Notes: generated by a model from the letters alone, not told the origin. A stretch of DNA of 14,752 nt from a virus (IMGVR_UViG_3300031565_000009), one strand, 5' to 3'; numbered from the stretch's first letter, positions 1 to 13,257 are shown. A program made the numbers and translations.

Positions 1-644
1 GCCCGATAAATCACGGCCGACTGCCTACCGCTAAGGCTGCGGTTCGCCTTGGGCAGAAGGGACTGCCTGACCTGCTCGGGATGATCCGAAAAATGGAGGA
101 AGCGTCGGGGCAACTCGTCCACATACTGCTGGACCTTCTCGTTGCACTCCACGAACACGCGGGTGTAGCCGTCCTTGGCCTTAATCTTGGAATCTTCCAC
201 CACCGAGACCGCCAGCCGGTGATCCTGGATGGCCGGGACAAACTCGCCGTTCTCCTCGCGGATGGTCCGATCAATGGCGTTGCTGACAAACTCCCGCAGC
301 GCCATACCCAACTCCGTCCAGTCGATCGCGCCAAAATCGAGTACCCATCCTAAATCGATGGTCCTGGTCGAGGTGCCGCCCAGCTTGCAGACAACTCGCT
401 GGACCCGCTTACGGGTCAATCCGTCGTCCACCTCGTCGTCGCGGGTCTGAAAGTCCAGGCGGGTCTTTCCGCAGCAGACGAACACCTTCAGGCCGGCCCG
501 CAGCAGCACGTTGATGGCGTGCTTCGTGCCTGAGCCGAATTGACCGATGGTGCCGTCCACACCGCAGTCGCGAGTCGTGCTGACGCCGAGCAGGGTGTAG
601 CCTTCGACCGGAGCCACACCGGGATTCTGAATCATCAGGAACAT
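1..644 (-). CDS. GHKL-like ATPase with permuted motif order, 3'-truncated by the window edge (at least 214 aa)
   Basis: Hand translation from ATG 644 (SD GAAGAGG upstream) is open to the edge: MFLMIQNPGVAPVEGYTLLGVSTTRDCGVDGTIGQFGSGTKHAINVLLRAG...WTELGMALREFVSNAIDR...KDGYTRVFVE. Not in the ORF track because no stop lies in the window. Confidence 0.8.
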   Translation of the reverse strand, partial: MFLMIQNPGVAPVEGYTLLGVSTTRDCGVDGTIGQFGSGTKHAINVLLRAGLKVFVCCGKTRLDFQTRDDEVDDGLTRKRVQRVVCKLGGTSTRTIDLGWVLDFGAIDWTELGMALREFVSNAIDRTIREENGEFVPAIQDHRLAVSVVEDSKIKAKDGYTRVFVECNEKVQQYVDELPRRFLHFSDHPEQVRQSLLPKANRSLSGRQSAVIYR

Positions 645-686
645 GAATGCCTCTTCATCACGGATGTCGTACTTGACCTCTATTCA

Positions 687-714
687 AGAATAGCACGAAA
701 GTGGCCAAAGTCAA
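687..714 (-). promoter_or_regulatory. Conserved sigma70-type promoter, family copy 1
   Basis: Minus strand TTGACT-TTGGCCACTTTCGTGC-TATTCT-TGAATAGAG: 16-bp spacer, extended -10 TG, upstream of ATG 644. Confidence 0.75.
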
Positions 715-732
715 ATAGGCCAGCACAAATTT

Positions 733-873
733 CTAGCGAAAAACGAGAAACGCGAAAAGCACGATCAGAACAAGAAAAATGAAGACGACAAGTACCCGCC
801 CAAACGGAATCGGTCTCTCGCCCTCCTCTGGCGGATAGACCAAATTGACAACCATCTCAATGAGCCATTTCAT
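733..873 (-). CDS. Small membrane protein, 46 aa (may instead start at ATG 1095, 120 aa)
   Basis: MKWLIEMVVNLVYPPEEGERPIPFGRVLVVFIFLVLIVLFAFLVFR has a C-terminal hydrophobic helix and is paralogous to the N-terminus of 945-1223. In-frame ATG 1095 has a strong SD (AAAGGAG). Confidence 0.5.
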   Translation of the reverse strand: MKWLIEMVVNLVYPPEEGERPIPFGRVLVVFIFLVLIVLFAFLVFR

Positions 874-944
874 AGGCAAGGTCGAGTTTGCACCTCGCAG
901 GGGCGGCAAATGTACCGATTCGAGCCGCGAAAAAAAGTCCGACA

Positions 945-1223
945 TCAACTCGACGTAGCCCACACCCTCGCTTGCCTCCAGCACCATACCACACAGCCGG
1001 CAGTGGGCTCGCCTCTTGTTGGAGCCCACAGGCTCATCGAAGTCCGCCCGTCGCTCGCGCCGCCAACATCGGAATTGCTCAACCGAAAGTCGCATCCTAC
1101 TCCTTTCAAGACAAGACAGATGAAGACAGCCAACATCCGCCAAAATGGGATCGGCTCCTCACCAGCCTCCGGCGGATAGACAAGATCGACCCAAGCCTCA
1201 ATGAGCCAGCGGAACGGTTTCAT
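945..1223 (-). CDS. Small membrane-associated protein, paralog of 733-873
   Basis: MKPFRWLIEAWVDLVYPPEAGEEPIPFWRMLAVFICLVL... shares the WLIE-x3-LVYPPE-x-GE-x-PIPF motif. The C-terminal half is uncertain. Confidence 0.4.
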   Translation of the reverse strand: MKPFRWLIEAWVDLVYPPEAGEEPIPFWRMLAVFICLVLKGVGCDFRLSNSDVGGASDGRTSMSLWAPTRGEPTAGCVVWCWRQARVWATSS

Positions 1224-1280
1224 CAAAAGACTTCGGGCTGTTCGAGGACCAACCGAACCATCCGTGCGCCAAGGTCCGCG

Positions 1281-2720
1281 CTATCTGAATAGGTCAGAAT
1301 CGTTCAAGGCCAGAAAAGTGAGGCGAGCACCAAGACGGCAACAAGCCTTGTAATATGATTCGCTCAAATGGTCGCTCTCATAATGGTGCGCGAACTCGTG
1401 TATGAGAAGAGTCACGACCTCCTCTGTGATGCCGTGCTCGAAGAAGGCCGCCCCGCAGCGGGAGTAGTTGAACGTCAGCCGACCCTTGCCGTAGGTCGCC
1501 CCATAGGGCCAATGCGGCTCGCGGGCGAAGGTGACAGTCAACGTGGAGTCCAGCAAGAGGTTCGCCAGGGCCTCGGCATAGTCGGCAATCCGCCGCATCC
1601 CCTCAGTCCACTCGCTTTCGGGAATCACATTCAATGGATCACCATCCGGGGAATACGGTTTCGGACTCGGGGTGACGACGCCGGCCGCCGGCAGCACGCC
1701 AGCCCGACTCGCGTTGGACCACTCAGCCGCCGTGAGGCTTCCGCCGTAGACAACGGGCCGTCCCTCAGCCGCCGACCGCTTATTGGCCTCCCGGTCCGAA
1801 GGATCATAGCGGACGGCATTTTCGCCGAAACGAAGGGTCACGGCGGCCTTGACCGCCTCGGTGTTGGCCCGCTCGTCGCTACATGCCTCCCGCACCCACG
1901 TCTGCGGGGCGTCTTCCTTGTCGATCAGATGGTGGGTGGCATTCAGGACCGCCACCCGAATCGTCCGCAAGTAGGCCGGCGTTACGTTGTCGCGGTCCAT
2001 GTTCAACGGCACCTTCTGCTGCACGTCTACATGGAAACGATCGCCCGTCTCAACCACCGGGATGCCCATTTCATAGAGCATCGCAACCTCACCCTCGGCC
2101 GGCTCGTAGACTCGCACCAACGTCTTGCGGCTGGTCTTCCGCAGCACACCCTCGCCATCTGCCACAACGGTCGGCAGGACTTCGTTGACGAACGCCACTG
2201 GGAAGCGAGATGCCAGAATGCAGCCGTTGAACATCGTGGCAATGTCGGCCGGCGGAATCAGCCGCTTGACGGCCTGATTGATCTCTTCCAGGTCAGCTTT
2301 TGTCATAGGGATCGTGGCACGGAACAAGGAACCGGCATCTCGCCGATGACGCGAAGCATGCCGCCCGTGCTCGTTGAACCACACGCCGCCGGTCGTCGTT
2401 TCGATGCAGGCGGCCTTTGCCAAAGCCAAAACCAGTTTCTCGCCCAGGTTAAAGCGGCCCCGTTGCCCGACATTCCCTTTCTTCCGGCTCTCGGCAAACA
2501 AGGTATAAGCGTCCCGCAGGTCCGCAAACCCATCTGGGTCATCATCAACCACGGTGATTTGCGCACTGCGCGTGCCGGCTACTAGCTCCAACGTCACGTC
2601 CACGCGGGTGACATTCTGATCCCAGGCGTTTTGCAGGAGTTCATAGACAATGAACGCCTTGGGCTTACTCGCCACCAGCTTTGCCAAGCCGGCTTTGTCC
2701 ACATCAAACCAGTTGCCCAT
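1281..2720 (-). CDS. GHKL (Hsp90/MutL/Topo VI-B-like) ATPase with C-terminal HExxH zincin-like module, 479 aa
   Basis: N-box ELLQNAWD (E27/N31), G1-like VVDDDPDG, G2-like GQRGRFNLGEKL, C-terminal LLIHEFAHHYESDH. SD GAGGTGAG before ATG 2720. Confidence 0.85.
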   Translation of the reverse strand: MGNWFDVDKAGLAKLVASKPKAFIVYELLQNAWDQNVTRVDVTLELVAGTRSAQITVVDDDPDGFADLRDAYTLFAESRKKGNVGQRGRFNLGEKLVLALAKAACIETTTGGVWFNEHGRHASRHRRDAGSLFRATIPMTKADLEEINQAVKRLIPPADIATMFNGCILASRFPVAFVNEVLPTVVADGEGVLRKTSRKTLVRVYEPAEGEVAMLYEMGIPVVETGDRFHVDVQQKVPLNMDRDNVTPAYLRTIRVAVLNATHHLIDKEDAPQTWVREACSDERANTEAVKAAVTLRFGENAVRYDPSDREANKRSAAEGRPVVYGGSLTAAEWSNASRAGVLPAAGVVTPSPKPYSPDGDPLNVIPESEWTEGMRRIADYAEALANLLLDSTLTVTFAREPHWPYGATYGKGRLTFNYSRCGAAFFEHGITEEVVTLLIHEFAHHYESDHLSESYYKACCRLGARLTFLALNDSDLFR

Positions 2721-2739
2721 AATCTCACCTCAAGCAATT

Positions 2740-2768
2740 ATTCTACTGGATAGAATTGCACAAGACAA
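2740..2768 (-). promoter_or_regulatory. sigma70-type promoter for the GHKL gene
   Basis: Minus strand TTGTCT-N17-TAGAAT in the intergenic gap, 20 nt upstream of ATG 2720. Confidence 0.6.
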
Positions 2769-2822
2769 CAGCAGCCTTCTTGGCGTCGGCCAGGACGTAT
2801 TCCCCAGGCTTGCCATGCCACG

Positions 2823-3791
2823 CTAGTTGCTTTCGCCATTCCCCAGAAACTCGATCACGTTGTTCCAGCGGGTGCTGACCTTGCCCAACTGGTCGCGGCC
2901 GGTTCGCTGCCGCTCCAATGCCTCCTCCCAGGCGTCCTGGTCGATCTGTGCCTCCACAGTCTGGCGGATCAAGTCCACGATCACTGCCGGCTCCAGGGCA
3001 TCCAACTCCCAGGAGTCCGCACCGTACAATTCCGCATAAGAGCGGTAGCGGACATCTGTGGTCTTAGCCGGGTTGGGCGGCGGATCATACTGCTCGACTT
3101 GATCGTAAGTCAAAGCGATCCGCAAGACAATGACTGAAGAGCCAAACAACTCCAGCCGATCTTGAATATCGCGGCTCATGTCAATCCCGGACGGATCATG
3201 GTCTCCCAGATGCACAATGAATGTCTTCTTGTCGCATTTCTCGCGCTCGATAAGCCGCTGAGCCGCTCCCCACATTTCCGACTGCGAAGTGTAGCCCTTG
3301 CACGCAAAGTAGGGCACATCCAGATCGGTGCAGACGCCTTCCAGAACGCCAATCAGGGCCTCTTTCTCAACCCACACCTCGACATAGTTCTCCTGAGTCT
3401 CCCACAGGTCCACAGCATACTGGCCGGCGCACGCCCGCACGATGGATCGCGGACTCGACCAGTGTGGGCTGCTTTGCAGGTTGCGGGTCCGGTCTTCAAT
3501 GGCGTCCCAGTCGATCAGGCCAGCCAGCCGACCGTCACTGGCAACATCGACCAGCCGCTTGTAGTTCTTTGGTGTGTTCTTCGTATCCGGCGGCAGACCG
3601 TTCTTCAAATTGTAAGCCCGGTCGATCCACGAGTCAGGAAACAGGTCGCGGGCGATGAACTGGTAATAAAGCTGACGCACGGTCAGTTTGAATCCCTGCT
3701 GCAAATAATCGGTGATGATGGCGTTGGCACGCTTGATGATGGCCAGCGAGTCAGAACGGAAACGCTTCTTGACATAGGTGATGCAGGGCAT
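2823..3791 (-). CDS. Spo11/Topo VI-A-like WHD-TOPRIM protein (Mini-A-like), 322 aa
   Basis: LTVRQLYY (Y42/Y43) matches the Spo11/Top6A TxRxxYY catalytic-tyrosine motif. TOPRIM glutamate motif VEVWVEKEAL, GY-S motif CKGYTSQS, DxD in HLGDHDPSG, and a downstream WELDAL motif. Confidence 0.85.
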   Translation of the reverse strand: MPCITYVKKRFRSDSLAIIKRANAIITDYLQQGFKLTVRQLYYQFIARDLFPDSWIDRAYNLKNGLPPDTKNTPKNYKRLVDVASDGRLAGLIDWDAIEDRTRNLQSSPHWSSPRSIVRACAGQYAVDLWETQENYVEVWVEKEALIGVLEGVCTDLDVPYFACKGYTSQSEMWGAAQRLIEREKCDKKTFIVHLGDHDPSGIDMSRDIQDRLELFGSSVIVLRIALTYDQVEQYDPPPNPAKTTDVRYRSYAELYGADSWELDALEPAVIVDLIRQTVEAQIDQDAWEEALERQRTGRDQLGKVSTRWNNVIEFLGNGESN

Positions 3792-3826
3792 GGTGTTGGC
3801 TCAATAGAGGAACAAAGCGTGAAAAC

Positions 3827-4234
3827 TTACGATGGCATGGAAACTGTTTCAAGATACCCCACGACCCTCTGCATCGCGGCGCGGGCCTCCTGCCACAATG
3901 CCCGCAATTGCGGATCGAAAATCCGTGCAGGCGGAATGAAACTGTAAATCGCGTACCCCAGCCCTTCATAGCTGACAACTTCCTTGACGATAGAGGCATC
4001 AATCGGCCCCTTGGGAAGCGGCTCCGGCGGCGAAATCTCCGGCATCCGCTTCGCCGTGTCCGCCACCCACGCCCCGGGCTCGGGATACAGCGGATGCGGG
4101 ACCTGCCCAGCCTTCATGGCGACCTTTATGACAGCCTTTCCATTGCGCTTGCAGCCGAAGTCGTGGCCGCACTCACAGACGAGTTTCCGGGCACCATGAC
4201 TGGTGCCGCAGTCGGGGCATCTCTTCATTGGCAT
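3827..4234 (-). CDS. Hypothetical protein with N-terminal Zn ribbon, 135 aa
   Basis: CPDC-x10-CECG at the N-terminus; overlaps the upstream gene and is co-oriented with the operon. Confidence 0.7.
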   Translation of the reverse strand: MPMKRCPDCGTSHGARKLVCECGHDFGCKRNGKAVIKVAMKAGQVPHPLYPEPGAWVADTAKRMPEISPPEPLPKGPIDASIVKEVVSYEGLGYAIYSFIPPARIFDPQLRALWQEARAAMQRVVGYLETVSMPS

Positions 4235-4548
4235 TTGAGCACCACACTGGATTCAAATTTCTTCACGACTTCCAGTTTCGTGCCGGCCGGAATCACTTGA
4301 TTTTCATCCTTGAACTCCGGCACATAAGCTACCAATCCCTTGTAACCATCGTGAACAAAAAATCGTGGCCCCATGCCATCAATGATGCAGTATTCAGAAA
4401 TCCGAACACACATCTTGCCAGTATGTGGATGCGGCTTTAGTCTAGCCCCCTTGTCACACACCAAAACATCACCCACCAAGACGCCACGCTCACGCAAGGC
4501 ATCCGAGTCCTTCCAGTATTGCTCCCATTCCTCTTTGTTAAGTTGCAT
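4225..4548 (-). CDS. Hypothetical protein, 107 aa
   Basis: Restarted at ATG 4548 (MQLNKEEW...) because of SD AGGAGG; overlaps both neighbours by 10-11 nt. Confidence 0.7.
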   Translation of the reverse strand: MQLNKEEWEQYWKDSDALRERGVLVGDVLVCDKGARLKPHPHTGKMCVRISEYCIIDGMGPRFFVHDGYKGLVAYVPEFKDENQVIPAGTKLEVVKKFESSVVLKCQ

Positions 4549-4726
4549 TCTCAGCCTCCTCGTGGGCCAATTCCAAGAAAGCCTCCCTCTCGTTGCCGTC
4601 GATCTTGACAAGCCACTGGGAGGCAAGGCTGCAATTGAACTCAATGCCAAGTGCTCGGGCGGCCGACACGACGCCAATCTTCGCCCGGCCACAGTCTTCA
4701 TGCACATCATTTGGGTGGATAATCAT
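4538..4726 (-). CDS. Hypothetical protein, 62 aa
   Basis: ATG 4726 with SD AAAGGA; fills the gap in a coupled gene run. Confidence 0.6.
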   Translation of the reverse strand: MIIHPNDVHEDCGRAKIGVVSAARALGIEFNCSLASQWLVKIDGNEREAFLELAHEEAENAT

Positions 4727-4728
4727 CG

Positions 4729-4869
4729 CTAGTCCTTTTGCAAGTCCTGGATTTTCAGAGAGATCGGGTCCAATTTGGCGGCGATCTCAGGGTGCGTGTC
4801 CCAAAGTTCTTCCATCAAGTCGCCAAGGTCTAGTTCAATCTCAAACAGCTTCTCATCTAGGCTGGCCAC
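4729..4869 (-). CDS. Small acidic helical protein, 46 aa (not in ORF track)
   Basis: GTG 4869 with SD GGAG: MASLDEKLFEIELDLGDLMEELWDTHPEIAAKLDPISLKIQDLQKD, stop TAG 4731-4729; fills the gap between neighbours. Confidence 0.6.
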   Translation of the reverse strand: MASLDEKLFEIELDLGDLMEELWDTHPEIAAKLDPISLKIQDLQKD

Positions 4870-5141
4870 GGTTCAATCTCCAATGCCAATTCGGCACAGT
4901 ACAAAGCAAACTTGCGGCTGTAGTCAACATGACCTTCAGCTTGATTCTCAACCTTCATCACGTCGAACAAGGTGGCCTGGGGCGCATCATTCTTCAAACG
5001 GATGGCATTTACGAGACGGAACATCACATCTCGTTCATAACGAACCCATTCCAGTTCGCCGTCCACCATCGCATTCTTCTGTAATCGAAGTTCTTGTGCC
5101 TTACTCAAAGCTGACAAGAACATATCCGAAAGTTGTCGCAT
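4857..5141 (-). CDS. Phage-type hypothetical protein, 94 aa
   Basis: ATG 5141 with SD GGGAG. C-terminal AEGHVDYSRKFALYCAEL resembles a motif I recall from uncharacterised phage proteins (unverified). Confidence 0.7.
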   Translation of the reverse strand: MRQLSDMFLSALSKAQELRLQKNAMVDGELEWVRYERDVMFRLVNAIRLKNDAPQATLFDVMKVENQAEGHVDYSRKFALYCAELALEIEPWPA

Positions 5142-5167
5142 CACTTCTCCCTGCCGAATGCTCCAAG

Positions 5168-5386
5168 TCACTTCTTGAATCCCATCGCCTTCAGTTGTTT
5201 GTCGGTATGCGGCCAGCACGGGCCGTCATCGGGAAACTGTTGCTCGTGGGCGCGGGCGCATTCCGCACACGGATGCTCCCAGAAACCGTGTTTATTCAGC
5301 TTGCCGATGCCAAAGGTGAGGCAGTCATGAATGCCGGTGCTGATCTGGCAGGTGTGGCCCTCGGGTCTAACGAATACCTTTGCCAT
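5168..5386 (-). CDS. Small Cys/His-rich protein, 72 aa
   Basis: ATG 5386 with a G-rich SD (GGGGAGGG); contains HTC, HPCAECARAHE and GPCWPH. Confidence 0.65.
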   Translation of the reverse strand: MAKVFVRPEGHTCQISTGIHDCLTFGIGKLNKHGFWEHPCAECARAHEQQFPDDGPCWPHTDKQLKAMGFKK

Positions 5387-5648
5387 CCATCCCTCCCCAC
5401 CGCTTCGCGTAAGCCACAAACTGGCTCCGGGCAGTGAATTTTTCAGTGCGCTTGATACACGCTTCACAGAGGCAGATGGCGATGTCACCCCAATTGGCAC
5501 CGTCGCTGCCTTGGCAATCGGTCAGCGGATGGGAAAAGTAGTCATCACCCACCACAGCAGTGCAACCCTGGCAACAGTTGACTTCGGTGTACTTGCCGTC
5601 GTCACTGCGCTGCTCCTGGCGAGCCTCTTGTTTAGGCGTTCGCGGCAT
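5367..5648 (-). CDS. Small Cys-rich (putative Zn-binding) protein, 93 aa
   Basis: ATG 5648 with SD GGAG; CCQGC and CLCEAC motifs; overlaps both neighbours. Confidence 0.65.
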   Translation of the reverse strand: MPRTPKQEARQEQRSDDGKYTEVNCCQGCTAVVGDDYFSHPLTDCQGSDGANWGDIAICLCEACIKRTEKFTARSQFVAYAKRWGGMDGKGIR

Positions 5649-6288
5649 TGACGATCTCCAATTCTTCCTCAGCCGGCTCCCCGGCTGGTTCCTCAATCTC
5701 CGGCGGCTCCGGAGCCTCGCCTTCGAGATACATCTGCTCACCACAGGCGCAGGTAGGGCACCCCGCCACGTCGATCCACTTCTGAGTCATTCGGCAGATG
5801 CAGCCGCACTCGGGGCACTCTACCTTGAGCATCCGCGTGCCCTGTTTAGGCGGGGCATTGGAGTGCTTCAACTCGGCGTGCGGATAGGGGCCAATCTGGT
5901 CAACGATCTCCTGGAGCCGCACTTTGAGGGTATCGCCAGCATGTGTAGCAGTCAGCTTGCCCTCCAGGCCAATCTTGCGGGCCACACCCTTGAAGCGGCC
6001 ACGATGCCCCTGATCGAGGCCAGCAACACAATGGCACAACTCGTGGACCAGCGTGGCGGCCACCTCGATGGGGTCCCTCAGCACGGGCGAAATGAAAGTC
6101 TCAAAGTGCTGGTCGCCGGAACACTCAGCACTCCACGCCTCACCGATCCGCTTCTTCTTTTGAGCCAGGCCAGACTTGGATGGCCAGGAGCAGGAGGCTC
6201 TGATCTTCTCGGGCAAAACGAAGCCGATCCTCTCGAAATCAGGACGCAGCTTCTCAATGCACTTCAACAGCCATTCTTCGCGTATCAC
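5632..6288 (-). CDS. SprT-like zinc metalloprotease with C-terminal Zn ribbon and acidic tail, 218 aa
   Basis: ATLVHELCHCVAGLDQGHRGRF (HExxH plus third His), KVECPECG...CPTCACG, Glu/Pro-rich tail. GTG start with SD GGAG. Confidence 0.85.
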   Translation of the reverse strand: MIREEWLLKCIEKLRPDFERIGFVLPEKIRASCSWPSKSGLAQKKKRIGEAWSAECSGDQHFETFISPVLRDPIEVAATLVHELCHCVAGLDQGHRGRFKGVARKIGLEGKLTATHAGDTLKVRLQEIVDQIGPYPHAELKHSNAPPKQGTRMLKVECPECGCICRMTQKWIDVAGCPTCACGEQMYLEGEAPEPPEIEEPAGEPAEEELEIVNAANA

Positions 6289-6328
6289 GGTGCCGTCTCC
6301 AGATATATAAACGCCTTAGCTCTATTCA

Positions 6329-6356
6329 AGAATACCACGAAGGTGGCCAAAGTCAA
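6329..6356 (-). promoter_or_regulatory. Conserved sigma70-type promoter, family copy 2
   Basis: TTGACT-TTGGCCACCTTCGTGG-TATTCT-TGAATAGAG; only 2 differences from copy 1 over 37 bp. Confidence 0.8.
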
Positions 6357-6640
6357 ATAGAAATCAGGGCATCGCAGCCAACCAGGATGTTCTCCATCTG
6401 GTCGAGACGGTCATAGCACCTGTAGCGGCCCGCCAACTGTGTCGCCGTGGATAGGTACTCCTCATACCTGACTGAGCGAACACGTTGACGACCCCGGCTG
6501 ATCTGCGGGTAGCGCTTCCGCCGAATCTTCTCAGCCAGGCTGATAGCCAGATGGCCGCCTTGACTCTTCATCACGTTCACTGGCATCCACAGCCCCCGGC
6601 CATGCTTAGCCTTCACCTCGATCACAAAGTAGTCCATCAT
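6353..6640 (-). CDS. Hypothetical basic protein, 95 aa
   Basis: ATG preceded by TGAGG and 3 nt downstream of the upstream stop; co-oriented. Confidence 0.55.
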   Translation of the reverse strand: MMDYFVIEVKAKHGRGLWMPVNVMKSQGGHLAISLAEKIRRKRYPQISRGRQRVRSVRYEEYLSTATQLAGRYRCYDRLDQMENILVGCDALISI

Positions 6641-8098: not shown

Positions 8099-9415
8099 TC
8101 AGAAGGTAGCTTCCGAGGCTAAGATAGGCTCCTCGTAAGTCGTTTTTGGAGTGTTTTGGGTCTTCTTTCGGCCCTTTTTGGTCTTCGGAAGGCCCTCGAC
8201 GACCCTTTTCAACTCCGTTTGCGGGCATCCATGATAGTCGCCATGCTTCGTGACGGTCCCGGTGATGTCCATGGTGTCGCCGACATTCCAGTCGTCCAGT
8301 TCCTTCGACGCCCACCACACAATGATGTTGCCGTCCGGCGTCTCGAAGCGAACGAGCGTGCGGACACCATAGGTGCCCTCAAAGTATTTCATCGCCTTGA
8401 CTTCGCAGCCCGCGAATCCAAAACGCTGGCCGACTTCGCCTAGATGCTTGCGCTGTCGATCCTGCTTCTTCCGCAGGTTCAACTCCTCGATGCGCTCCAA
8501 ATGCCGCAAGTAGGCCGATACCGCCGAGGCGACGAGGCCGATGGTCTTGTAGTTGACCGACTCTTGCCGGCAGGCTACACCCAGGTTGTACTCGTAGTTG
8601 CTGACGCCGGCCGCCGGGATCGCGCGAGCCCATGCCAGGGCCTCCCCGGCTAGTTTCTCGTCGCGTTCCTCCGCATACAGGCTGTGATTCTTGATTAACT
8701 CCTGGACGAACTTGCTCTTCCAGTTGGTCAAGATCATCCAGGCAGTCGAGCCCGTGGTCTGCTCGTCGCTGAACGGATCACTTTTCTCGATCATGCGGCG
8801 ACTCTTCCAACCCAGTCGGCGGATGCAGATCGCCACGGTGCCCAGAAACTCGCGGATGTCCCGCATCCGCCCACCACGTCCACCACCCCAGCAGAAGTCT
8901 TCATCTTCCGCCTCGCGGGCGGCATCAAGGGCCGAGAACTCCCATCCCGCGCGGGCGGCCAGCGTTAAGGCGGAAACGTGCCCGAGGAAGTCGGCGATAC
9001 ACTGCCGGCCAACCTGCACGATGCGGCCATCCTCGTGGCCAAGCACGAAGACTTCCTTCCGCCGACGCAAGGCTTGGCAATGATCGCAGTGGGTATCGGT
9101 GCTGCGGTACACCTCTGGCACAGTCTGCCCGGGGACCGTGCGGACCAGATTCTCACCGTTGTCAAGCATTTCGATGGCCGCCAGCAGGGTCCAACCCTCA
9201 AACTTGGGCGACTCGCCGATCACCTCGATCTCCAGACGGGCTTGCTTATACACCAGCTTCGTGTCCGGCTGACGCTTCTTTACCTCAAACTCGCGAACGA
9301 CCCGCAACGCGATGGGCTGGCAGCCCAGCTTCTTGGCGCGGCGGTTCAGCCTTTCGATCCGCTCGCGGAGGTGATCGAAGTTGTAGGCGGGGATGTCGAA
9401 GACGTTCTCATTCAT
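8099..9415 (-). CDS. Phage-type protein with Zn finger and C-terminal OB-fold-like domain, 438 aa
   Basis: Start reassigned to ATG 9415 (MNENVFDIPAYNFDHLRERIERLNRRAKKLG) because a promoter lies inside the longer ORF. CDHC...VGRQC Zn motif; C-terminal HLGEVGQR...GTYGVRTLVRFETPDGNIIVWWAS...ITGTVTKHGDYHGCPQTELKRV has an OB-fold pattern. Confidence 0.8.
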   Translation of the reverse strand: MNENVFDIPAYNFDHLRERIERLNRRAKKLGCQPIALRVVREFEVKKRQPDTKLVYKQARLEIEVIGESPKFEGWTLLAAIEMLDNGENLVRTVPGQTVPEVYRSTDTHCDHCQALRRRKEVFVLGHEDGRIVQVGRQCIADFLGHVSALTLAARAGWEFSALDAAREAEDEDFCWGGGRGGRMRDIREFLGTVAICIRRLGWKSRRMIEKSDPFSDEQTTGSTAWMILTNWKSKFVQELIKNHSLYAEERDEKLAGEALAWARAIPAAGVSNYEYNLGVACRQESVNYKTIGLVASAVSAYLRHLERIEELNLRKKQDRQRKHLGEVGQRFGFAGCEVKAMKYFEGTYGVRTLVRFETPDGNIIVWWASKELDDWNVGDTMDITGTVTKHGDYHGCPQTELKRVVEGLPKTKKGRKKTQNTPKTTYEEPILASEATF

Positions 9416-9478
9416 GGTGTCGCTCACGGTGTCGCTCACGGTGTCGCTCACGGTGTCGCTCACGGTGTCGCTCACGGT
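9416..9478. repeat. Perfect 12-bp tandem array, GGTGTCGCTCAC x5 plus 3 nt
   Basis: Read directly; abuts ATG 9415 and lies downstream of the 9502-9529 promoter. Confidence 0.97.
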
Positions 9479-9501
9479 TGCTCGTTGCTCGACTCTATTC
9501 A

Positions 9502-9529
9502 AACATACCACAAATGTGGCAAAAGTCAA
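9502..9529 (-). promoter_or_regulatory. Conserved sigma70-type promoter, family copy 3
   Basis: TTGACT-TTTGCCACATTTGTGG-TATGTT-TGAATAGAG; preceded on the minus strand by a T9 run (9533-9541). Confidence 0.8.
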
Positions 9530-9592
9530 GACAAAAAAAAACCCCGGACTTGCGAACGGTAGCTTGCGAGCTGGTCGAAGGGATTGCAGCAA

Positions 9593-10028: not shown

Positions 10029-10793
10029 TCATTCCATAGCCTTGCAACAATTTAACACGCCAGTCTTGCTGCCAAGATAGTTCGCGCCAAGATAACGGCC
10101 AATTACACGTCGCAGCGTTGATTCATTCCACGGCTTGCCAGTGCGGGTCTTGCTTTCAGTGGCATTTAATTGGTCTACAATCTGCTGCAACGTCAGGCCA
10201 GATTCACGCATATACTTGATCCACGGCACAAGGGGCTCGTAGCACTTTTTCATTTCCTCTCGCGAGATATTCTGTGCTGCCGCCGTTGCCTGACGAAAAC
10301 CTCTCTTCTTGCCATCCCAGTGACCCTCCCGGTGCGAGCCCAGTTTCACGCCGCGAGACTTGAGCACGTCGAGGGCAGCCGTGGTCCGATCGGAGATCAT
10401 CCGCCCCTCACGCTCGGCCAGGGCAGCAAGGATATGGAGAGTGAACTGGTCCGCCTCGGGCATATCGCAGCAGATGATCGGCAGTTGGCTCTCCATGAGA
10501 GCGCTGATGAAGGCCACGTTACGGGCCAGGCGGTCCAACTTGGCAATCACCAAGGTCGCCCGCGTCTTGCGGGCATGGGCAATGGCCTTCTGCAACTGTG
10601 GCCGGCGAAGACACTTCTTCAGCCGCTTGCCGGTCTCCACCTCAGTGTATTCGCCGATCTTCGTGCCTGGCCGGCCGACCAGGAGTCGGGCAAACATGGT
10701 CCGCTGGGCTTCAAGCCCGAGACCCGAGTGACCTTGCTTCACGTCGGAAACGCGATAGTAGACGACATACTGAGTGGGCATGGTTGTTGGCAT
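10029..10793 (-). CDS. Serine recombinase (resolvase catalytic domain plus C-terminal recombinase-type DNA-binding domain), 254 aa
   Basis: Catalytic YYRVS...Q..SGLGLEAQ, then EVETG, RPQL, LVIAKLDRLARN, LAALAEREGRMISDRTTAAL, and a C-terminal TLQQIVDQLN...TRTGKPW HTH. SD GAGGAG. Confidence 0.92.
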   Translation of the reverse strand: MPTTMPTQYVVYYRVSDVKQGHSGLGLEAQRTMFARLLVGRPGTKIGEYTEVETGKRLKKCLRRPQLQKAIAHARKTRATLVIAKLDRLARNVAFISALMESQLPIICCDMPEADQFTLHILAALAEREGRMISDRTTAALDVLKSRGVKLGSHREGHWDGKKRGFRQATAAAQNISREEMKKCYEPLVPWIKYMRESGLTLQQIVDQLNATESKTRTGKPWNESTLRRVIGRYLGANYLGSKTGVLNCCKAME

Positions 10794-10813
10794 GATCGTG
10801 TCTCCTCAACACA

Positions 10814-10841
10814 ATCATACCACAATTTTGGCGAAAGTCAA
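10814..10841 (-). promoter_or_regulatory. Conserved sigma70-type promoter, family copy 4
   Basis: TTGACT-TTCGCCAAAATTGTGG-TATGAT, 16-bp spacer, directly upstream of SD GAGGAG and ATG 10793. Confidence 0.8.
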
Positions 10842-10899
10842 ATGGAAAAGCAAAGAGAAAAGCAAAGAGAAAGCAAATGGAAAAGCAAAAGAAACAAGC
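10840..10899. repeat. Degenerate ~12-bp A-rich tandem repeat, about 5 units
   Basis: AAATGGAAAAGC, AAAGAGAAAAGC, AAAGAGAAAGC, AAATGGAAAAGC, AAAAGAAACAAGC; abuts the -35 box. Confidence 0.75.
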
Positions 10900-10957: not shown

Positions 10958-10980
10958 CGTAGGGTGTCAGATTGTTGGTG

Positions 10981-11052
10981 TCAGACTGAATATCAGACTG
11001 AATATCAGACTGAGTATCAGACTGAGTATCAGACTGAGTATCAGACTGAGTA
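10981..11052. repeat. 12-bp tandem array, TCAGACTGA(A/G)TA x6
   Basis: Two copies TCAGACTGAATA then four copies TCAGACTGAGTA. The last copy is the final 12 nt of CDS 11041-11418, including its TGA. Confidence 0.97.
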
Positions 11053-11418
11053 GCCGTACTTCACTCGGAAGTCTGGGTTGTGCTTCATCAGCGCCAGCTT
11101 GGCAAACACCTCGCTCGACGTGCCGCCGCCGGCAAGGGAACTCTTCCACTGGTCAATATGATACTTCGACACGCCCCAATAGTAGACAACAGCCAATTCC
11201 ACTTCTTCGATCACTGCCCGCACCAAGCCGTTGCAAAAGATGGGAATCAGCTTGCCCCGATACGTGGTGGCTGGCCACCGGATGGGGGAGTCCGTGAAGC
11301 CGTCCACTTTCACGTCGCCGAGCCATTCATCTCTGACGATCTGTCCCTTGCGGGCCTTGGGCGGCATGTAGGGGCCGGCGTTGAATCGGTACTCGTAGGG
11401 AGGTGGGAAAGTGCTCAT
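11041..11418 (-). CDS. Putative HTH-containing protein, 125 aa
   Basis: GLVRAVIEEVELAVVYYWGVSKYHIDQWKSSL fits an HTH pattern. GPY-x-PP...D-x-PI-x-WP resembles uncharacterised proteins I recall from Planctomycetota (unverified). Confidence 0.65.
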   Translation of the reverse strand: MSTFPPPYEYRFNAGPYMPPKARKGQIVRDEWLGDVKVDGFTDSPIRWPATTYRGKLIPIFCNGLVRAVIEEVELAVVYYWGVSKYHIDQWKSSLAGGGTSSEVFAKLALMKHNPDFRVKYGYSV

Positions 11419-11430
11419 GCTGTTCTCATG

Positions 11431-12396
11431 CTATGCCCGCAACGCGCCCTCAGATTCGGTGGTGGCACCCAGGTACTCCTTGCCGATATAGCGCTTGACA
11501 ATGTTCCAGACCACACTCTGGCTGTAGTTGGACCCGCGCGGAGTCTGGTAGCCCTCCTCATTGAGGCGGTCAGCAATGTCGTGGAAGGTCAGACCCTCCT
11601 CGCGAAGCTGCTTGATCTTGGGCACTACCTTGGCGAGCACTTCTTCCTTCCGCTCGGCAGTCACGGAGCGATACTTGCCCTTCCGTGTGACGTTGCCCAG
11701 GTACTCGTCGCCAAGGTAGCGTTTGATGACGCGCCACAATGAAGCCTGTGAAAAGGGTTTGCCCGCAGTCGTCACCTTGCCCTGATCGTTCAGCCAACGG
11801 ACGATCTCGTCCATCGTGTCGCCGCGCGTGCGGCGCTTCTTAATCTCGGGCAAGAGCCACTGGTATTCCCGCAAGGCTTTCTCACTCCGCGCCTTCGATG
11901 CGGCCGGCACAGCTTGACGCCAACCGCGCTTGTGCTCGCGCCCCTTCCAGTGCCCGGGCCTGGCCGAACCAAGCGGCTTGCCCTCAGCCTTCAGCCTGGC
12001 CATCACCTCCCGATTGCGGAGGGAGATGCGCCGCGACTCCTCTTGGGCAACGGCCGAAAGGATATGGATAGTCGTCGCATTGGCCGAAGGATTATCGAGA
12101 CAAATGAACTTCAATCCCGACGCCTGAGCCTCCTGGGCCAAGTAGCCGGTGAAGCCGGCGTTGCGGGCCAGGCGGTCCAGCCTGGCGATCACCAGGGTCG
12201 CCCCAGCCTTGCAGGCGTGGGCGATGGCCTTCTGCAACTGCGGCCGAGGAGCCCGCTTGTTGCCAACTGTCTCGACCTCGTTGTAGGAGGCAAGCACCTC
12301 GCCACCAGCCGTCTTGAGCCAAGAGTTGACAGTTTTCCTCTGCCCGCCAAAATAGGGCTTGCCTTTCTTCGAGCGGTAGTAAATGATATAGGGCAT
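11431..12396 (-). CDS. Serine-recombinase-like protein with degenerate catalytic loop and duplicated C-terminal DNA-binding domain, 321 aa
   Basis: Clear paralog of 10029-10793 (RPQLQKAIAHA, ATLVIARLDRLARN, GHW-x-G, RYLG-x2-YLG). The N-terminus reads YYRSKKG instead of YYRVS, and the HTH-RY(L/I)G-x-EYLG module occurs twice. Confidence 0.88.
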   Translation of the reverse strand: MPYIIYYRSKKGKPYFGGQRKTVNSWLKTAGGEVLASYNEVETVGNKRAPRPQLQKAIAHACKAGATLVIARLDRLARNAGFTGYLAQEAQASGLKFICLDNPSANATTIHILSAVAQEESRRISLRNREVMARLKAEGKPLGSARPGHWKGREHKRGWRQAVPAASKARSEKALREYQWLLPEIKKRRTRGDTMDEIVRWLNDQGKVTTAGKPFSQASLWRVIKRYLGDEYLGNVTRKGKYRSVTAERKEEVLAKVVPKIKQLREEGLTFHDIADRLNEEGYQTPRGSNYSQSVVWNIVKRYIGKEYLGATTESEGALRA

Positions 12397-12423
12397 CTCT
12401 TTCTCGGTGACAGAGTTGAAGCG

Positions 12424-12550
12424 ACTTCAACGGACACTTCAACGGACACTTCAACGGACACTTCAACGGACACTTCAACGGACACTTCAACGGACACTTC
12501 AACGGACACTTCAACGGACACTTCAACGGACACTTCAACGGACACTTCAA
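12424..12550. repeat. Perfect 12-bp tandem array, ACTTCAACGGAC x10 plus 7 nt
   Basis: Read directly; spans from the -10 box of the 12550-12577 promoter to 27 nt before ATG 12396. Confidence 0.97.
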
Positions 12551-12577
12551 TCTTACACCATCATCGTCAGAAGTCAA
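12550..12577 (-). promoter_or_regulatory. sigma70-type promoter, divergent family copy 5
   Basis: TTGACT-TCTGACGATGATGGTG-TAAGAT-TGAA: same -35 box, 16-bp spacer and TGAA after the -10 box. Confidence 0.65.
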
Positions 12578-12753: not shown

Positions 12754-13140
12754 ATGATGATCCACACAATCATCCACACAATCAGTCCCATGATGATGGC
12801 CCTTCACAATGGAGTAGCCGAATACCAACCCCTTCACCCGGGGGTTGAATTGGCCCGCGAGAATCAGGACACCTTAGTCTCTGTCGCCAATCTCCATCTC
12901 CTCCATGATGAAGGTCTACAAGTGCTGAACCTGATCGCCGGCACAGCCGGCCTTCTGTTCATCTTCCACACCGGCGAACAGTACCTCGCCACGGGGCTCC
13001 GCGTGGGCAATCACCAATCGGTCGAATCCCTGGCCGAACTCATGGCAGAGTGGGCCTTTGGCGACCGGCGGGAGTTGTCCGCCCTCTACGCGGCACTGCC
13101 AGACGACTACCGAGGCCCCATACCCTTGGGTCAGGTTTGA
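12754..13140 (+). CDS. Hypothetical protein, up to 128 aa; only supported plus-strand gene
   Basis: Lies downstream of a consensus promoter, does not shadow a credible minus-strand gene, and has globular composition. Start codon uncertain. Confidence 0.6.
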   Translation: MMIHTIIHTISPMMMALHNGVAEYQPLHPGVELARENQDTLVSVANLHLLHDEGLQVLNLIAGTAGLLFIFHTGEQYLATGLRVGNHQSVESLAELMAEWAFGDRRELSALYAALPDDYRGPIPLGQV

Positions 13141-13239
13141 TCGGCAGCTTGATCGGCAGCTTGATCGGCAGCTTGATCGGCAGCTTGATCGGCAGCTTGA
13201 TCGGCAGCTTGATCGGCAGCTTGATCGGCAGCTTGATCG
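13137..13239. repeat. Perfect 12-bp tandem array, TTGATCGGCAGC x8 plus 7 nt
   Basis: Read directly; the first unit contains the TGA stop (13138-13140) of CDS 12754-13140. Confidence 0.97.
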
Positions 13240-13257
13240 ACGGTTTGACGGGCTATG

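What the first reader, a model, noticed from the sequence alone, without database searches (positions are those of the whole stretch)
1281..3791. Spo11/Topo VI-A-like gene beside a GHKL-HExxH ATPase: candidate atypical type IIB topoisomerase or DNA-cleaving system
Seen: a 322-aa protein with intact TxRxxYY, VEK and DxD motifs directly upstream of a 479-aa GHKL ATPase, with a second permuted GHKL downstream. Established: Topo VI is an A (WHD-TOPRIM) plus B (GHKL) heterotetramer; Mini-A proteins and Topo VIII are MGE-borne type IIB relatives; Wadjet JetD is a Top6A-like nuclease. Unusual here: I cannot see Top6B H2TH/transducer motifs in the ATPase, which ends instead in an HExxH module. Inference: an A-like subunit working with non-canonical B-like partners, either as a topoisomerase or as a covalent DNA-cutting effector against host or competitor DNA.
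Basis: partly seen in the sequence, partly recalled or inferred. Interest (0 to 1): 0.82.

Follow-up and report, generated by a model that had tools for sequence, protein, structure and literature searches.

The report
Phage Mini-A beside unrelated ATPase-protease gene
A phage carries a known stand-alone topoisomerase-VI-A-like gene (Mini-A) next to a gene fusing an ATP-driven clamp to a small zinc protease, but across phages and bacteria the two families almost always occur apart, so they are probably neighbours and not the two halves of a new topoisomerase.

Summary
Window 2823-3791(-) encodes a 322-aa protein with R39xxY42Y43, VE142K, D197xD199xxG and SWELDAL. Window 1281-2720(-) encodes a 479-aa GHKL ATPase ending in HExxHx5H. 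A third gene, cut by the window end (3-644), has its GHKL motifs in permuted order.

The first protein is a Mini-A, a known phage subfamily of type IIB topoisomerase A subunits. It matches phrog_6247 at E 1.6e-110, and Topo VI-A is its best fold match. The second protein is a GHKL plus transducer-like ATPase fused to a Wss1/SprT-like zincin. It belongs to a large unnamed family that this scan has already described several times on other DNA. It resembles Topo II, ParE, MutL, Top6B, Hsp90 and MORC ATPases about equally.

- 4 of 80 Mini-A viral loci hold the ATPase.
- 7 of 80 ATPase viral loci hold a Mini-A.
- 0 of 44 whole Mini-A virus records hold the ATPase (0 of 24 that are at least 90% complete).
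- 1 of 80 bacterial genome loci holds both.
- At most 1 of the 84 GenBank phage records with Mini-A can hold the ATPase.

Adjacency does recur in two distant phages, so a facultative link is not excluded. One example would be a protease that clears covalent Mini-A-DNA adducts.

Verdict: ordinary neighbours, both of unknown function; interest is low to moderate.

The parts
2823..3791 (-). Mini-A gene (322 aa): stand-alone Top6A/Spo11-like protein with a 5Y-CAP and a Toprim domain
   Evidence: phrog_6247 'DNA topoisomerase' E 1.6e-110. The model has pLDDT 88.4. Foldseek's top hits are Topo VI-A (9o0g_A, 9o8p_A, 1d3y; prob 0.99-1.0). The Toprim part 136-282 matches 1d3y_B with Z 8.9.
3663..3677 (-). 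RQLYY: R39 and the presumed catalytic Tyr43 of the 5Y-CAP
   Evidence: Translation. R39 and Y43 are invariant in A4. The spacing is the same as R99/Y103 of M. jannaschii Top6A as described in PMC7671362.
3186..3203 (-). DHDPSG: the Toprim DxDxxG metal-binding motif. The matching Toprim Glu (E142) lies in VEK at 3363-3371.
   Evidence: D197, H198, D199, P200, S201, G202, E142 and K143 are invariant in A4.
2994..3011 (-). WELDAL: the T2BI box signature that separates Mini-A from Topo VI and Topo VIII
   Evidence: E262, L263, D264 and A265 are invariant in A4. The signature xWELDAL is defined in PMC7671362.
2740..2768 (-). Sigma-70-like promoter match (TTGTCT-17-TAGAAT) in the 102-nt gap between the two genes
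   Evidence: 9 of 12 consensus positions. It is unique in the window. This is a pattern match only. A GAGGTG ribosome-binding site precedes the ATG at 2720.
1281..2720 (-). Gene for a 479-aa fusion protein: GHKL ATPase, transducer-like domain, helical linker and Wss1/SprT-like zincin
   Evidence: The model has pLDDT 90.3. The family has at least 3792 members, all unnamed.
1926..2720 (-). GHKL (Bergerat) fold plus transducer-like domain, residues 1-265. It carries N-box ELLQNAWD, DDDPDGF, RGRFNLGEK and an invariant Q235-K236 loop.
   Evidence: VIA-align: Topo II-beta ATPase Z 15.5, ParE 14.9, MutL 14.3, Top6B (2q2e_B) 13.8, GRP94 13.6, MORC2 13.2. Foldseek: TRAP1/Hsp90 E 1e-12. Pfam HATPase_c 7e-4 and NCBIfam sacsin ATP-binding domain 2.7e-5, both below their cut-offs.
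1284..1628 (-). Wss1/SprT-like zincin domain, residues 365-479, with HEFAHHYESDH (HExxHx5H) at 1368-1400
   Evidence: Wss1 5xbn_A Z 8.8, 5ln5_A Z 7.4, SPRTN 6mdx_A Z 6.6. Residues 263-475 match a stand-alone 'SprT-like domain-containing protein' at 38% identity, TM by hit 0.85. E442 and H445 are invariant.
3..644 (-). First 214 residues of a 475-aa distant paralogue (P0243) of the ATPase-zincin gene. Its motif order is permuted: the G2-like loop comes before the N-box-like helix.
   Evidence: hhalign of A3 against A5 gives probability 86.8%, E 4.3e-6, over 385 columns. Alignment A5 includes non-permuted relatives. The Atlas neighbours carry PF25856 and HATPase_c_3.
733..1095 (-). Small ORF (120 aa) of unknown function between the two ATPase-like genes
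   Evidence: It is a called gene in L001. It has no PHROG match.

Best explanation
The stretch holds two separate phage accessory genes, not one enzyme.

(1) Mini-A is a stand-alone Top6A/Spo11-like protein. Inferred: it acts as a homodimer, binds Mg2+ through E142, D197 and D199, and cuts DNA through a 5'-phosphotyrosyl link at Y43. Inferred from its context in cultured phages: it serves phage DNA replication or recombination without a dedicated ATPase subunit.

(2) The 479-aa protein is an ATP-gated clamp fused to a protease. Shown: it has a GHKL fold with intact ATP-binding motifs, a transducer-like domain with an invariant QK loop, and a Wss1/SprT-like zincin with HExxHx5H. Inferred: ATP binding dimerises the GHKL heads, as in MutL, Hsp90 and MORC, and this controls cleavage of a DNA-bound or other protein substrate.

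Shown: the two genes are adjacent only in this phage lineage and in a few others. In most genomes each occurs without the other. The host is probably a member of the Planctomycetota (inferred from the closest genomic relatives).
For: Identity of Mini-A:
- phrog_6247 at E 1.6e-110.
- All signature motifs are invariant, including the xWELDAL box that defines Mini-A (PMC7671362).
- Top6A is the best fold match.

Identity of the ATPase-zincin.

Independence of the two genes:
- IMG/VR loci within 8 kb: 4 of 80 Mini-A loci hold the ATPase, and 7 of 80 ATPase loci hold a Mini-A. Iterated profile searches give the same picture.
- Whole virus records: 0 of 44 Mini-A records match the ATPase profile, and 0 of 24 among those at least 90% complete. 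The positive control rang in 4 of 5 records.
- No PF13589-type GHKL was found in the same 44 records, while the two controls rang.
- 5 of 47 non-control ATPase records hold a Mini-A, and in 3 of those the genes are 12-45 kb apart.
- One further complete record (148,650 bases; loci L007 and L092) holds both genes about 60 kb apart.
- Species-representative genomes: 1 of 80 ATPase loci has a Mini-A within 10 kb.
- GenBank phages: 84 records have a Mini-A, and only one record (uncultured, 485 kb) has the ATPase.
- A prophage-like region in a 7.8-Mb Planctomycetia MAG has a 61%-identical ATPase and no Mini-A.
- Close relatives of this phage (L004, L005, L009, L010, L014, L015) keep Mini-A and the permuted paralogue but lack the ATPase-zincin.

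Context in cultured phages: in PaMx25 and BP12C the Mini-A lies in the replication and recombination module. Its neighbours there include primase, RNase H, ThyX, ligase, Sak4, Cas4 exonuclease and helicase, with no GHKL gene nearby.

Published work: Takahashi et al. found no Bergerat-fold neighbour of Mini-A and note that Mini-A lacks the N-terminal segment by which Top6A binds Top6B.
Against: Adjacency of the two families recurs outside this lineage.
- L135: Mini-A lies about 0.6 kb upstream of the ATPase; identities to the window's proteins are 43% and 46%.
- L150: a Mini-A split into two ORFs lies about 0.5 kb downstream of the ATPase.
- On the ATPase tree the three Mini-A-adjacent genes sit on separate branches. 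Juxtaposition therefore arose, or was kept, more than once.
- Among ATPase-bearing virus records at least 90% complete, 4 of 20 also hold a Mini-A. That is well above the 84 of 50,697 seen in GenBank phages.

Neither protein has been characterised biochemically, so every activity stated here is inferred from motifs and folds.
Confidence: 0.68

Rival explanations
1. Facultative functional coupling. In this lineage and a few others, the Wss1/SprT-like protease of the ATPase-zincin removes Mini-A, or another topoisomerase-like protein, that has become covalently trapped on DNA. This is the role Wss1 and SPRTN play for topoisomerase-DNA adducts. Alternatively the ATPase regulates Mini-A cleavage. 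Under this reading the pair is an optional add-on, not a holoenzyme.
For: - Same strand, 102-nt gap, no strong terminator between the genes.
- Adjacency recurs in L135 and L150 on separate branches of the ATPase tree.
- 4 of 20 complete ATPase-bearing virus records also hold a Mini-A.
- The C-terminal domain's best solved matches are the DNA-protein-crosslink proteases Wss1 and SPRTN.
- The window holds a second SprT-like gene at 5632-6288.
- That Mini-A makes a covalent tyrosyl-DNA intermediate is inferred from the conserved R39/Y43 and Toprim residues.
Against: - Most members of each family occur without the other.
- Close relatives of this phage keep Mini-A but lack the ATPase-zincin.
- Clustering of accessory DNA-metabolism genes in phage genomes could produce the few adjacencies by itself.
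- No biochemical data exist.
Confidence: 0.17
2. Mini-A and the GHKL protein, perhaps with the permuted paralogue, form an atypical A2B2-like type IIB topoisomerase or an ATP-driven DNA-cleaving effector. The GHKL protein would then be the long-sought 'Mini-B'.
For: - A GHKL plus transducer-like module lies directly downstream of a Top6A-like gene.
- Top6B is among the tied structural matches: 2q2e_B, Z 13.8, 229 residues aligned.
- Takahashi et al. leave open a non-canonical 'Mini-B' yet to be discovered.
Against: - Every Mini-A virus record examined outside the close lineage lacks this ATPase and any PF13589-type GHKL: 0 of 44, and 0 of 24 complete.
- Cultured Mini-A phages lack it.
- The ATPase family is widespread without Mini-A.
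- The model shows no helical H2TH domain between the GHKL and the transducer, and no long C-terminal transducer helix. A protease domain follows instead.
Confidence: 0.05
3. Both proteins are counter-defence or host-takeover effectors that act on host targets independently of phage replication. Mini-A would cut host DNA. The ATPase-protease would degrade a host defence protein or a nucleoid protein.
For: - Both genes lie in a variable early or accessory region, between serine recombinases and the structural genes, among many small ORFs of unknown function.
- The ATPase-zincin is spread patchily across phages and prophages of many phyla, as conflict genes tend to be.
- Iyer et al. 2021 propose host-directed roles for phage SprT-like and ArdC-like zincins and for rIIA-type GHKL proteins (PMC7824862).
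Against: - In cultured phages Mini-A sits inside the replication and recombination module, not an anti-defence island.
- None of the window's proteins tested matches a PADLOC defence-system model.
- No target is known.
Confidence: 0.1

Closest known systems
Mini-A subfamily of type IIB topoisomerase A subunits (Takahashi et al. 2020, NAR Genom Bioinform, PMC7671362). Examples: gp51 of Pseudomonas phage PaMx25 and gp28 of Salmonella phage BP12C, both annotated 'DNA topoisomerase'.
   Same: About 300-320 aa. 5Y-CAP with RxxYY, Toprim with E and DxDxxG, and the xWELDAL T2BI box. Phage-borne. Matches phrog_6247 at E 1.6e-110. 40-48% identical to the Mini-A proteins of cultured phages.
   Different: Nothing essential. 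It carries a roughly 20-residue insert (about residues 53-71) that some relatives lack. It sits among accessory genes, not inside a recognisable replication module.
Archaeal Topo VI (Top6A2-Top6B2) and eukaryotic Spo11-Top6BL
   Same: Mini-A shares the 5Y-CAP/Toprim fold and the catalytic residues of Top6A. The ATPase shares the GHKL-plus-transducer plan with Top6B: 2q2e_B, Z 13.8.
   Different: There is no conserved A-B gene pair. The model shows no H2TH domain and no long transducer helix, and the ATPase ends in a protease domain. Mini-A lacks the B-binding N-terminal segment. Top6B matches no better than Topo II, ParE or MutL.
Wss1 / SprT / SPRTN DNA-protein-crosslink metalloproteases (WLM and SprT-like zincins)
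   Same: The C-terminal domain has HExxHx5H. Its fold matches Wss1 (5xbn_A Z 8.8; 5ln5_A Z 7.4) and SPRTN (6mdx_A Z 6.6). A stand-alone SprT-like protein is 38% identical to residues 263-475.
   Different: It is fused to an N-terminal GHKL-transducer ATPase. None of the Wss1 or SPRTN structures matched here (5xbn, 5ln5, 6mdx) carries one. There is no significant Pfam match to SprT-like or WLM. The substrate and any dependence on DNA are unknown.
GHKL-plus-S5 'clamp' ATPases with variable C-terminal effector domains: MutL, MORC/paraMORC, Hsp90, sacsin, and phage T4 rIIA-type proteins
   Same: N-box, G1 and G2 motifs and a transducer-like second domain. Fold scores of Z 12-15 to MutL, MORC2, MORC3, GRP94 and sacsin SR1. 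The domain logic, an N-terminal GHKL with a variable C-terminal domain, is the one described for rIIA orthologues (PMC7824862).
   Different: No PHROG family matches at all, rIIA families included. The Pfam and NCBIfam GHKL hits are below their cut-offs. The effector domain here is a zincin.
Wadjet JetD and Topo VIII, the other Top6A-like proteins borne by mobile elements
   Same: The Toprim part of Mini-A also aligns to the C. glutamicum nuclease 8b7f_B with Z 8.1; I recall this entry as a JetD, but the entry title does not say so. Both families are carried by mobile elements or are linked to defence.
   Different: No PADLOC hit and no JetABC-like genes nearby. Topo VIII fuses the B and A moieties and has an RVELNAM box, not WELDAL.

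Membership tests
Mini-A (type IIB topoisomerase A-like subfamily) | 5Y-CAP with a conserved Arg and a catalytic Tyr in R-x-x-[YF]-Y | tested here: met
   RQLYY at residues 39-43. R39 and Y43 are invariant and Y42 is at least 90% conserved in 65 sequences.
Mini-A (type IIB topoisomerase A-like subfamily) | Toprim domain with a Glu and DxDxxG | tested here: met
   E142 (VEK) and D197-H-D199-P-S-G202 are all invariant. The Toprim fold 136-282 matches Top6A 1d3y_B with Z 8.9, rmsd 3.5, 138 residues aligned.
Mini-A (type IIB topoisomerase A-like subfamily) | T2BI box with the Mini-A signature xWELDAL | tested here: met
   SWELDAL at residues 260-266. E262, L263, D264 and A265 are invariant. The signature is defined in PMC7671362.
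Mini-A (type IIB topoisomerase A-like subfamily) | About 300 residues, shorter than Top6A, and encoded by viruses or proviruses | tested here: met
   322 aa. The contig carries a large terminase gene. 491 relatives were found in IMG/VR and 84 GenBank phage records hold one.
Mini-A (type IIB topoisomerase A-like subfamily) | DNA cleavage or topoisomerase activity | not testable with these tools
   The papers read here report no biochemical characterisation of any Mini-A.
Topo VI-type A2B2 holoenzyme | A and B genes conserved as a pair | tested here: not met
   4 of 80 and 7 of 80 viral loci. 0 of 44 whole Mini-A virus records (control). 1 of 80 genome loci. 84 versus 1 GenBank phage records.
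Topo VI-type A2B2 holoenzyme | B subunit with an H2TH domain between the GHKL and the transducer, and a long C-terminal transducer helix that contacts the A subunit | tested here: not met
   In the model (pLDDT 90) the GHKL (to about residue 150) runs straight into the beta-rich second domain (strands 161-233). No inserted helical domain is present. The chain then continues into a helical linker and a zincin domain. This rests on a predicted structure.
Topo VI-type A2B2 holoenzyme | Physical A-B association | not testable with these tools
   It needs co-purification. The one complex prediction gave no verdict (see Tried and rejected).
GHKL (Bergerat-fold) ATPase superfamily | N-box ExxxNxxD, G1 DxGxG-like and G2 GxxGxG-like motifs on the Bergerat fold | tested here: met
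   E27, N31, D34, D59, G64, G88, G93 and K95 are invariant. Fold Z 12-15.5 to Topo II, ParE, MutL, Top6B, MORC and Hsp90 ATPase domains. The Pfam hit is below its cut-off, E 7e-4.
Wss1/SprT-like zincin metalloproteases | An HExxH helix with a third His six residues after the second, on the small zincin fold | tested here: met
   H441-E442-x-x-H445-x5-H451. E442 and H445 are invariant; H441 and H451 are at least 90% conserved. Wss1 5xbn_A Z 8.8, rmsd 2.9, 103 residues aligned. A SprT-like AFDB cluster matches at 38% identity, TM by hit 0.85.
Wss1/SprT-like zincin metalloproteases | DNA-dependent protease activity on protein-DNA adducts | not testable with these tools
   This needs a biochemical assay.
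Wadjet JetD | Encoded together with JetA, JetB and JetC | tested here: not met
   No PADLOC match for any of the ten window proteins tested. No SMC-like gene is present in the 21-kb context.

The most novel reading that the evidence does not exclude
In a minority of phages the GHKL-Wss1-like protein is a dedicated, ATP-gated partner of Mini-A. Either it proteolytically releases Mini-A that is covalently bound to DNA ends, or it is a rudimentary 'Mini-B' that gates Mini-A cleavage. In that case the repeated, independent juxtaposition of the two rare families (this lineage, L135, L150) would be the first genomic clue to how Mini-A enzymes are controlled.
Probability: 0.15. Interest if true: 0.7.

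Novelty: new member of a known kind. Interest (0 to 1): 0.3.

Why it matters
Mini-A proteins are the least understood branch of the Topo VI/Spo11 family. Whether they have an ATPase partner ('Mini-B') has been an open question since 2019. This locus looked like an answer. The survey shows that the neighbouring GHKL protein cannot be the general partner, which narrows the search and supports the view that Mini-A works alone or with host factors.

The ATPase-protease fusion belongs to a very large phage and prophage family that has not been studied. Its mechanism, an ATP-controlled Wss1-like protease, would be worth testing in its own right. The few recurrent Mini-A adjacencies point to one concrete substrate to try.

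Tried and rejected
- **Complex prediction of Mini-A (A4) with the ATPase-zincin (A3):** no verdict. ipSAE was 0.00 in both runs and the controls were not run.
- **Megablast of window 1-6400 against GenBank phages:** no match.
- **Whole-genome search:** no genome is held for this window.
- **HMMER profile of close Mini-A relatives (A2) against PDB sequences:** only chance-level hits and no Top6A. The link to Top6A therefore rests on fold and motifs.
- **BLASTP of the zincin half of the ATPase against the window's other SprT-like protein (5632-6288):** not significant, E 0.64. The two are not recent paralogues.
- **PADLOC and NCBIfam:** no significant matches for Mini-A or its neighbours.
- **PHROGs:** no family for the ATPase-zincin or for ten small neighbouring ORFs.
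- **Clustering of all ORFs from 163 loci:** no broadly conserved neighbour for either family. The most frequent were serine recombinases, the permuted paralogue and a SprT-like protein, each in a minority of loci.
- **Literature:** the searches found no paper after 2019 that assigns a partner or an activity to Mini-A, and none that describes the GHKL-zincin fusion.
- **Structure of the permuted paralogue:** Its permutation rests on motif order, alignment A5 and hhalign only.
Full report
**What is in the sequence**

All genes of the window run on the minus strand. The finding covers two of them.

ORF 2823-3791(-) gives a 322-aa protein, P0001. ORF 1281-2720(-) gives a 479-aa protein, P0002. They are separated by 102 nt. 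That gap holds a 9-of-12 sigma-70-like match (TTGTCT-17-TAGAAT, 2768-2740) and a GAGGTG ribosome-binding site.

Downstream lie a 120-aa ORF (733-1095) and the first 214 residues of a third gene (3-644), which the window end cuts.

The exact protein P0002 occurs on 13 metagenome contigs of up to 93 kb. The 41-kb contig behind L001 extends the window. It shows the third gene in full (475 aa, P0243) and a GpA-type large terminase further downstream. The window is therefore part of a phage or prophage. The closest genomic relatives of P0002 are in Planctomycetota MAGs at 59-61% identity.

P0001 carries RQLYY (R39, Y42, Y43), VEK (E142), DHDPSG (D197, D199, G202) and SWELDAL (260-266) at the coordinates given under 'parts'. 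In an alignment of 65 relatives with a mean column identity of 49%, R39, Y43, E142, K143, D197-G202 and E262-A265 are invariant (A4).

P0002 carries the GHKL N-box ELLQNAWD, DDDPDGF, RGRFNLGEK and the C-terminal HEFAHHYESDH. The key residues are invariant or nearly so in 73 relatives of 40-76% identity (A3).

**What the first protein is**

P0001 matches phrog_6247, 'DNA topoisomerase', at E 1.6e-110. Pfam TP6A_N gives only E 0.078.

Takahashi et al. (PMC7671362) defined the 'Mini-A' subfamily as follows:
- about 300-aa phage-encoded homologues of Top6A;
- a 5Y-CAP with RxxYY and a Toprim domain with E and DxDxxG;
- a C-terminal T2BI box with the signature xWELDAL, which separates Mini-A from Topo VI and Topo VIII.

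P0001 meets every one of these features.

An AlphaFold model (pLDDT 88.4) has Topo VI-A subunits as its best Foldseek matches: 9o0g_A, 9o8p_A and 1d3y, with probability 0.99-1.0 and E about 1e-3. The weak E-values go with high rmsd over the whole chain. Its Toprim part (136-282) aligns best to:
- Top6A 1d3y_B, Z 8.9;
- Top6A 2zbk_A, Z 8.3;
- the C. glutamicum nuclease 8b7f_B, Z 8.1 (I recall this entry as a Wadjet JetD);
- Spo11 8uru_A, Z 7.1.

These Z values are modest but rank first.

84 GenBank phage records hold a relative at 40-48% identity. They include Pseudomonas phages PaMx25 and NP1, Xylella phages Salvo and Sano, Salmonella Chi-like phages, Roseobacter RDJL phages and a Listeria phage. 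Most are annotated 'DNA topoisomerase'. So P0001 is a new member of a known family whose activity has never been measured.

**What the second protein is**

The model of P0002 is confident (pLDDT 90.3).

Residues 1-265 form a GHKL fold followed by a beta-rich second domain. An alignment against all PDB cluster representatives gives these scores:

| Match | Z |
|---|---|
| Topo II-beta ATPase | 15.5 |
| ASFV topo II | 15.0 |
| ParE | 14.9 |
| phage T6 topo II ATPase | 14.8 |
| MutL | 14.3 |
| Top6B (2q2e_B) | 13.8 |
| GRP94 | 13.6 |
| MORC2 | 13.2 |

. Foldseek puts TRAP1/Hsp90 first at E 1e-12. Sequence profiles touch sacsin and MutL only weakly. The module is thus a generic GHKL-plus-transducer 'clamp' ATPase with no special affinity to Top6B.

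The model leaves no room for an H2TH domain between the two parts. An invariant Q235-K236 recalls the QTK loop of GyrB. That comparison is from my own knowledge and is an inference, not a test.

Residues 365-475 match the DNA-protein-crosslink proteases Wss1 (5xbn_A Z 8.8; 5ln5_A Z 7.4) and SPRTN (6mdx_A Z 6.6). Residues 263-475 match a stand-alone 'SprT-like domain-containing protein' at 38% identity with TM by hit 0.85. The motif is HExxHx5H.

The family is large. At least 3792 proteins scored E <= 0.001 among the candidates tested, and none carries an informative name. It occurs in Planctomycetota, Verrucomicrobiota, Acidobacteriota, Proteobacteria, Actinomycetota, Chloroflexota and other phyla.

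Earlier agents of this scan described the same family on other DNA as a clamp ATPase fused to a Wss1-like protease (e1-1607911, e1-1598418, e1-4755511, e1-1717070). My structure searches reach the same reading independently.

**The test of the partnership**

I ran it in four data sets.

(a) IMG/VR loci, 8 kb on each side.
- Of the 80 best Mini-A loci, 4 hold a P0002 homologue and 10 hold a P0243 homologue.
- Of the 80 best P0002 loci, 7 hold a Mini-A.
- Iterated profile searches on all ORFs give the same sets.
- The co-occurrences are almost all in close relatives of this phage, with at least 65% identity.
- Even there, L004, L005, L009, L010, L014 and L015 keep Mini-A and P0243 but lack P0002.

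(b) Whole virus records.
- None of 44 Mini-A records outside the close lineage matches the P0002 profile. That includes 0 of 24 records that CheckV rates at least 90% complete.
- The same search rang in 4 of 5 control records.
- Pfam HATPase_c_3 finds no GHKL protein in those 44 records, while the two controls ring.
- In the reverse direction, 5 of 47 non-control P0002 records hold a Mini-A, and 4 of 20 complete ones do.

(c) Species-representative bacterial and archaeal genomes.
- Of 80 P0002 loci with 10-kb flanks, one has a Mini-A fragment (L228).
- None of the 42 loci of at least 18 kb does.

(d) GenBank phages.
- 84 records hold a Mini-A.
- One unrelated uncultured 485-kb record holds a P0002 relative.

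In PaMx25 and BP12C the Mini-A gene sits in the replication and recombination module. Its neighbours there include primase, RNase H, ThyX, ligase, a Sak4-like annealing protein, a Cas4-type exonuclease and a helicase. No GHKL gene is nearby.

Clustering all ORFs of the 163 loci found no broadly conserved neighbour for either family.

This agrees with Takahashi et al., who found no Bergerat-fold protein near Mini-A genes. They also point out that Mini-A lacks the N-terminal 5Y-CAP segment through which Top6A binds Top6B.

**What speaks for some link**

The association is not zero.
- In L135, a 57-kb complete phage, a Mini-A (43% identical) lies about 0.6 kb upstream of a P0002 relative (46% identical).
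- In L150, a Mini-A split into two ORFs lies about 0.5 kb downstream of one.
- On a tree of the ATPase family the three Mini-A-adjacent genes fall on separate, well-supported branches (FastTree). The juxtaposition therefore arose or persisted more than once.
- In four other records both genes are present but 12-60 kb apart.

Two rare families meeting repeatedly is more than blind chance would give. It is also what modular phage genomes do with accessory DNA-metabolism genes, and it concerns a small minority of either family.

One mechanistic rationale exists. A Wss1/SPRTN-like protease is the kind of enzyme that removes covalently trapped topoisomerase-like proteins from DNA. I give this facultative coupling about 0.15-0.17 and a true A2B2 type IIB enzyme about 0.05.

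**Most likely mechanism**

Shown: the folds, the motifs and the distribution of the two genes.

Inferred for Mini-A: it dimerises like Top6A and cuts DNA by attack of Y43, with Mg2+ held by E142, D197 and D199. It acts in phage replication or recombination without its own ATPase.

Inferred for the 479-aa protein: it dimerises through its GHKL heads on ATP binding. The transducer-like domain senses the gamma-phosphate. This gates the Wss1-like zincin against a protein substrate, perhaps one bound to DNA.

Neither activity has been measured for any member of either family.

**The third gene**

P0243 is a distant paralogue of P0002. hhalign of A3 against A5 gives probability 86.8% and E 4.3e-6 over 385 columns. 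It aligns the G2 loops, the 'YEMGIPVVE' and 'YRAGVFVRE' strands and the HExxH helix.

Compared with non-permuted relatives found in L095, L101, L128 and L130, P0243 lacks the N-terminal N-box helix. It carries an N-box-like LREFVSNAIDR in an insert of about 135 residues after the G2 loop. Its zincin motif reads EExxH.

Atlas neighbours are viral clusters with PF25856 and HATPase_c_3. I could not fold this protein.

**Verdict**

The component identifications are right. The proposed type IIB holoenzyme is not supported.

Mini-A is a new member of a known family. The ATPase-protease is a member of a large, uncharacterised family that this scan has noted before. The pairing is at most a lineage-restricted, facultative association.

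Noticed in passing
window 678-718, 6320-6360, 9493-9533, 10805-10845: A 41-nt element occurs four times at 71-100% identity. Read on the minus strand it contains TTGACT-16-TATTCT with an extended TG. It lies just upstream of the starts of the permuted GHKL paralogue (644), the SprT-like gene (6288), the 458-aa phrog_2319 gene (9475) and a serine recombinase (10793). It looks like a phage-specific repeated promoter. Mini-A and the ATPase-zincin do not have it.
   Followed up: partly
window 12400-12567, 13113-13265, 10966-11061, 9394-9478, 14365-14436: Several tandem arrays of 12-nt units (ACTTCAACGGAC about 12 times, TTGATCGGCAGC about 10 times, ATATCAGACTGA about 7 times, and a GTGTCGCTCACG-type array) and one array of 9-nt units (GGTTGTCCT). 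Most lie in or next to intergenic regions around the two recombinase genes. They resemble iterons or binding-site arrays. The array at 9394-9478 lies at or just upstream of the start of the 458-aa phrog_2319 gene, whose called start is 9475 (a longer 497-aa ORF reaches 9592).
   Followed up: no
window 10029-10793(-) and 11431-12396(-): Two serine recombinase genes (Resolvase plus Recombinase domains; 254 and 321 aa) lie 0.6 kb apart. They share a 117-nt segment at 79% identity (10503-10619 and 12145-12261).
   Followed up: no
window 5632-6288(-): A second, stand-alone zincin gene: 218 aa, phrog_6361 at E 1.3e-48, Pfam SprT-like at E 0.0019 (below the cut-off). It is not detectably related in sequence to the zincin half of the ATPase fusion (BLASTP E 0.64).
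   Followed up: partly
window 3-644(-); full gene L001:12077-13504: A 475-aa distant paralogue of the ATPase-zincin. Its GHKL motif order is apparently circularly permuted and its zincin motif has changed to EExxH. Non-permuted HExxH relatives lie near P0002-type genes in L095, L101, L128 and L130.
   Followed up: partly
virus record behind L134 (G078:C1:213841-215841): A Mini-A homologue matches in two pieces (profile positions 3-121 and 119-296). The pieces are about 1.07 kb apart inside one 719-aa open frame, so the Mini-A gene may hold an intein or another in-frame insert.
   Followed up: no
L150:9917-11006: The Mini-A homologue next to the ATPase-zincin is split into two ORFs in different frames (139 and 222 aa), with a TGA inside the match. 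It could be a frameshift, a pseudogene or an assembly error.
   Followed up: no
L246 (Pseudomonas phage PaMx25) and L247 (Salmonella phage BP12C): In cultured phages Mini-A sits beside a ThyX thymidylate synthase, a DNA ligase and a Sak4-like annealing protein. In BP12C it lies near PAPS-reductase-like and nucleoside 2-deoxyribosyltransferase genes. This hints at a role tied to replication, recombination or modified-nucleotide metabolism.
   Followed up: no
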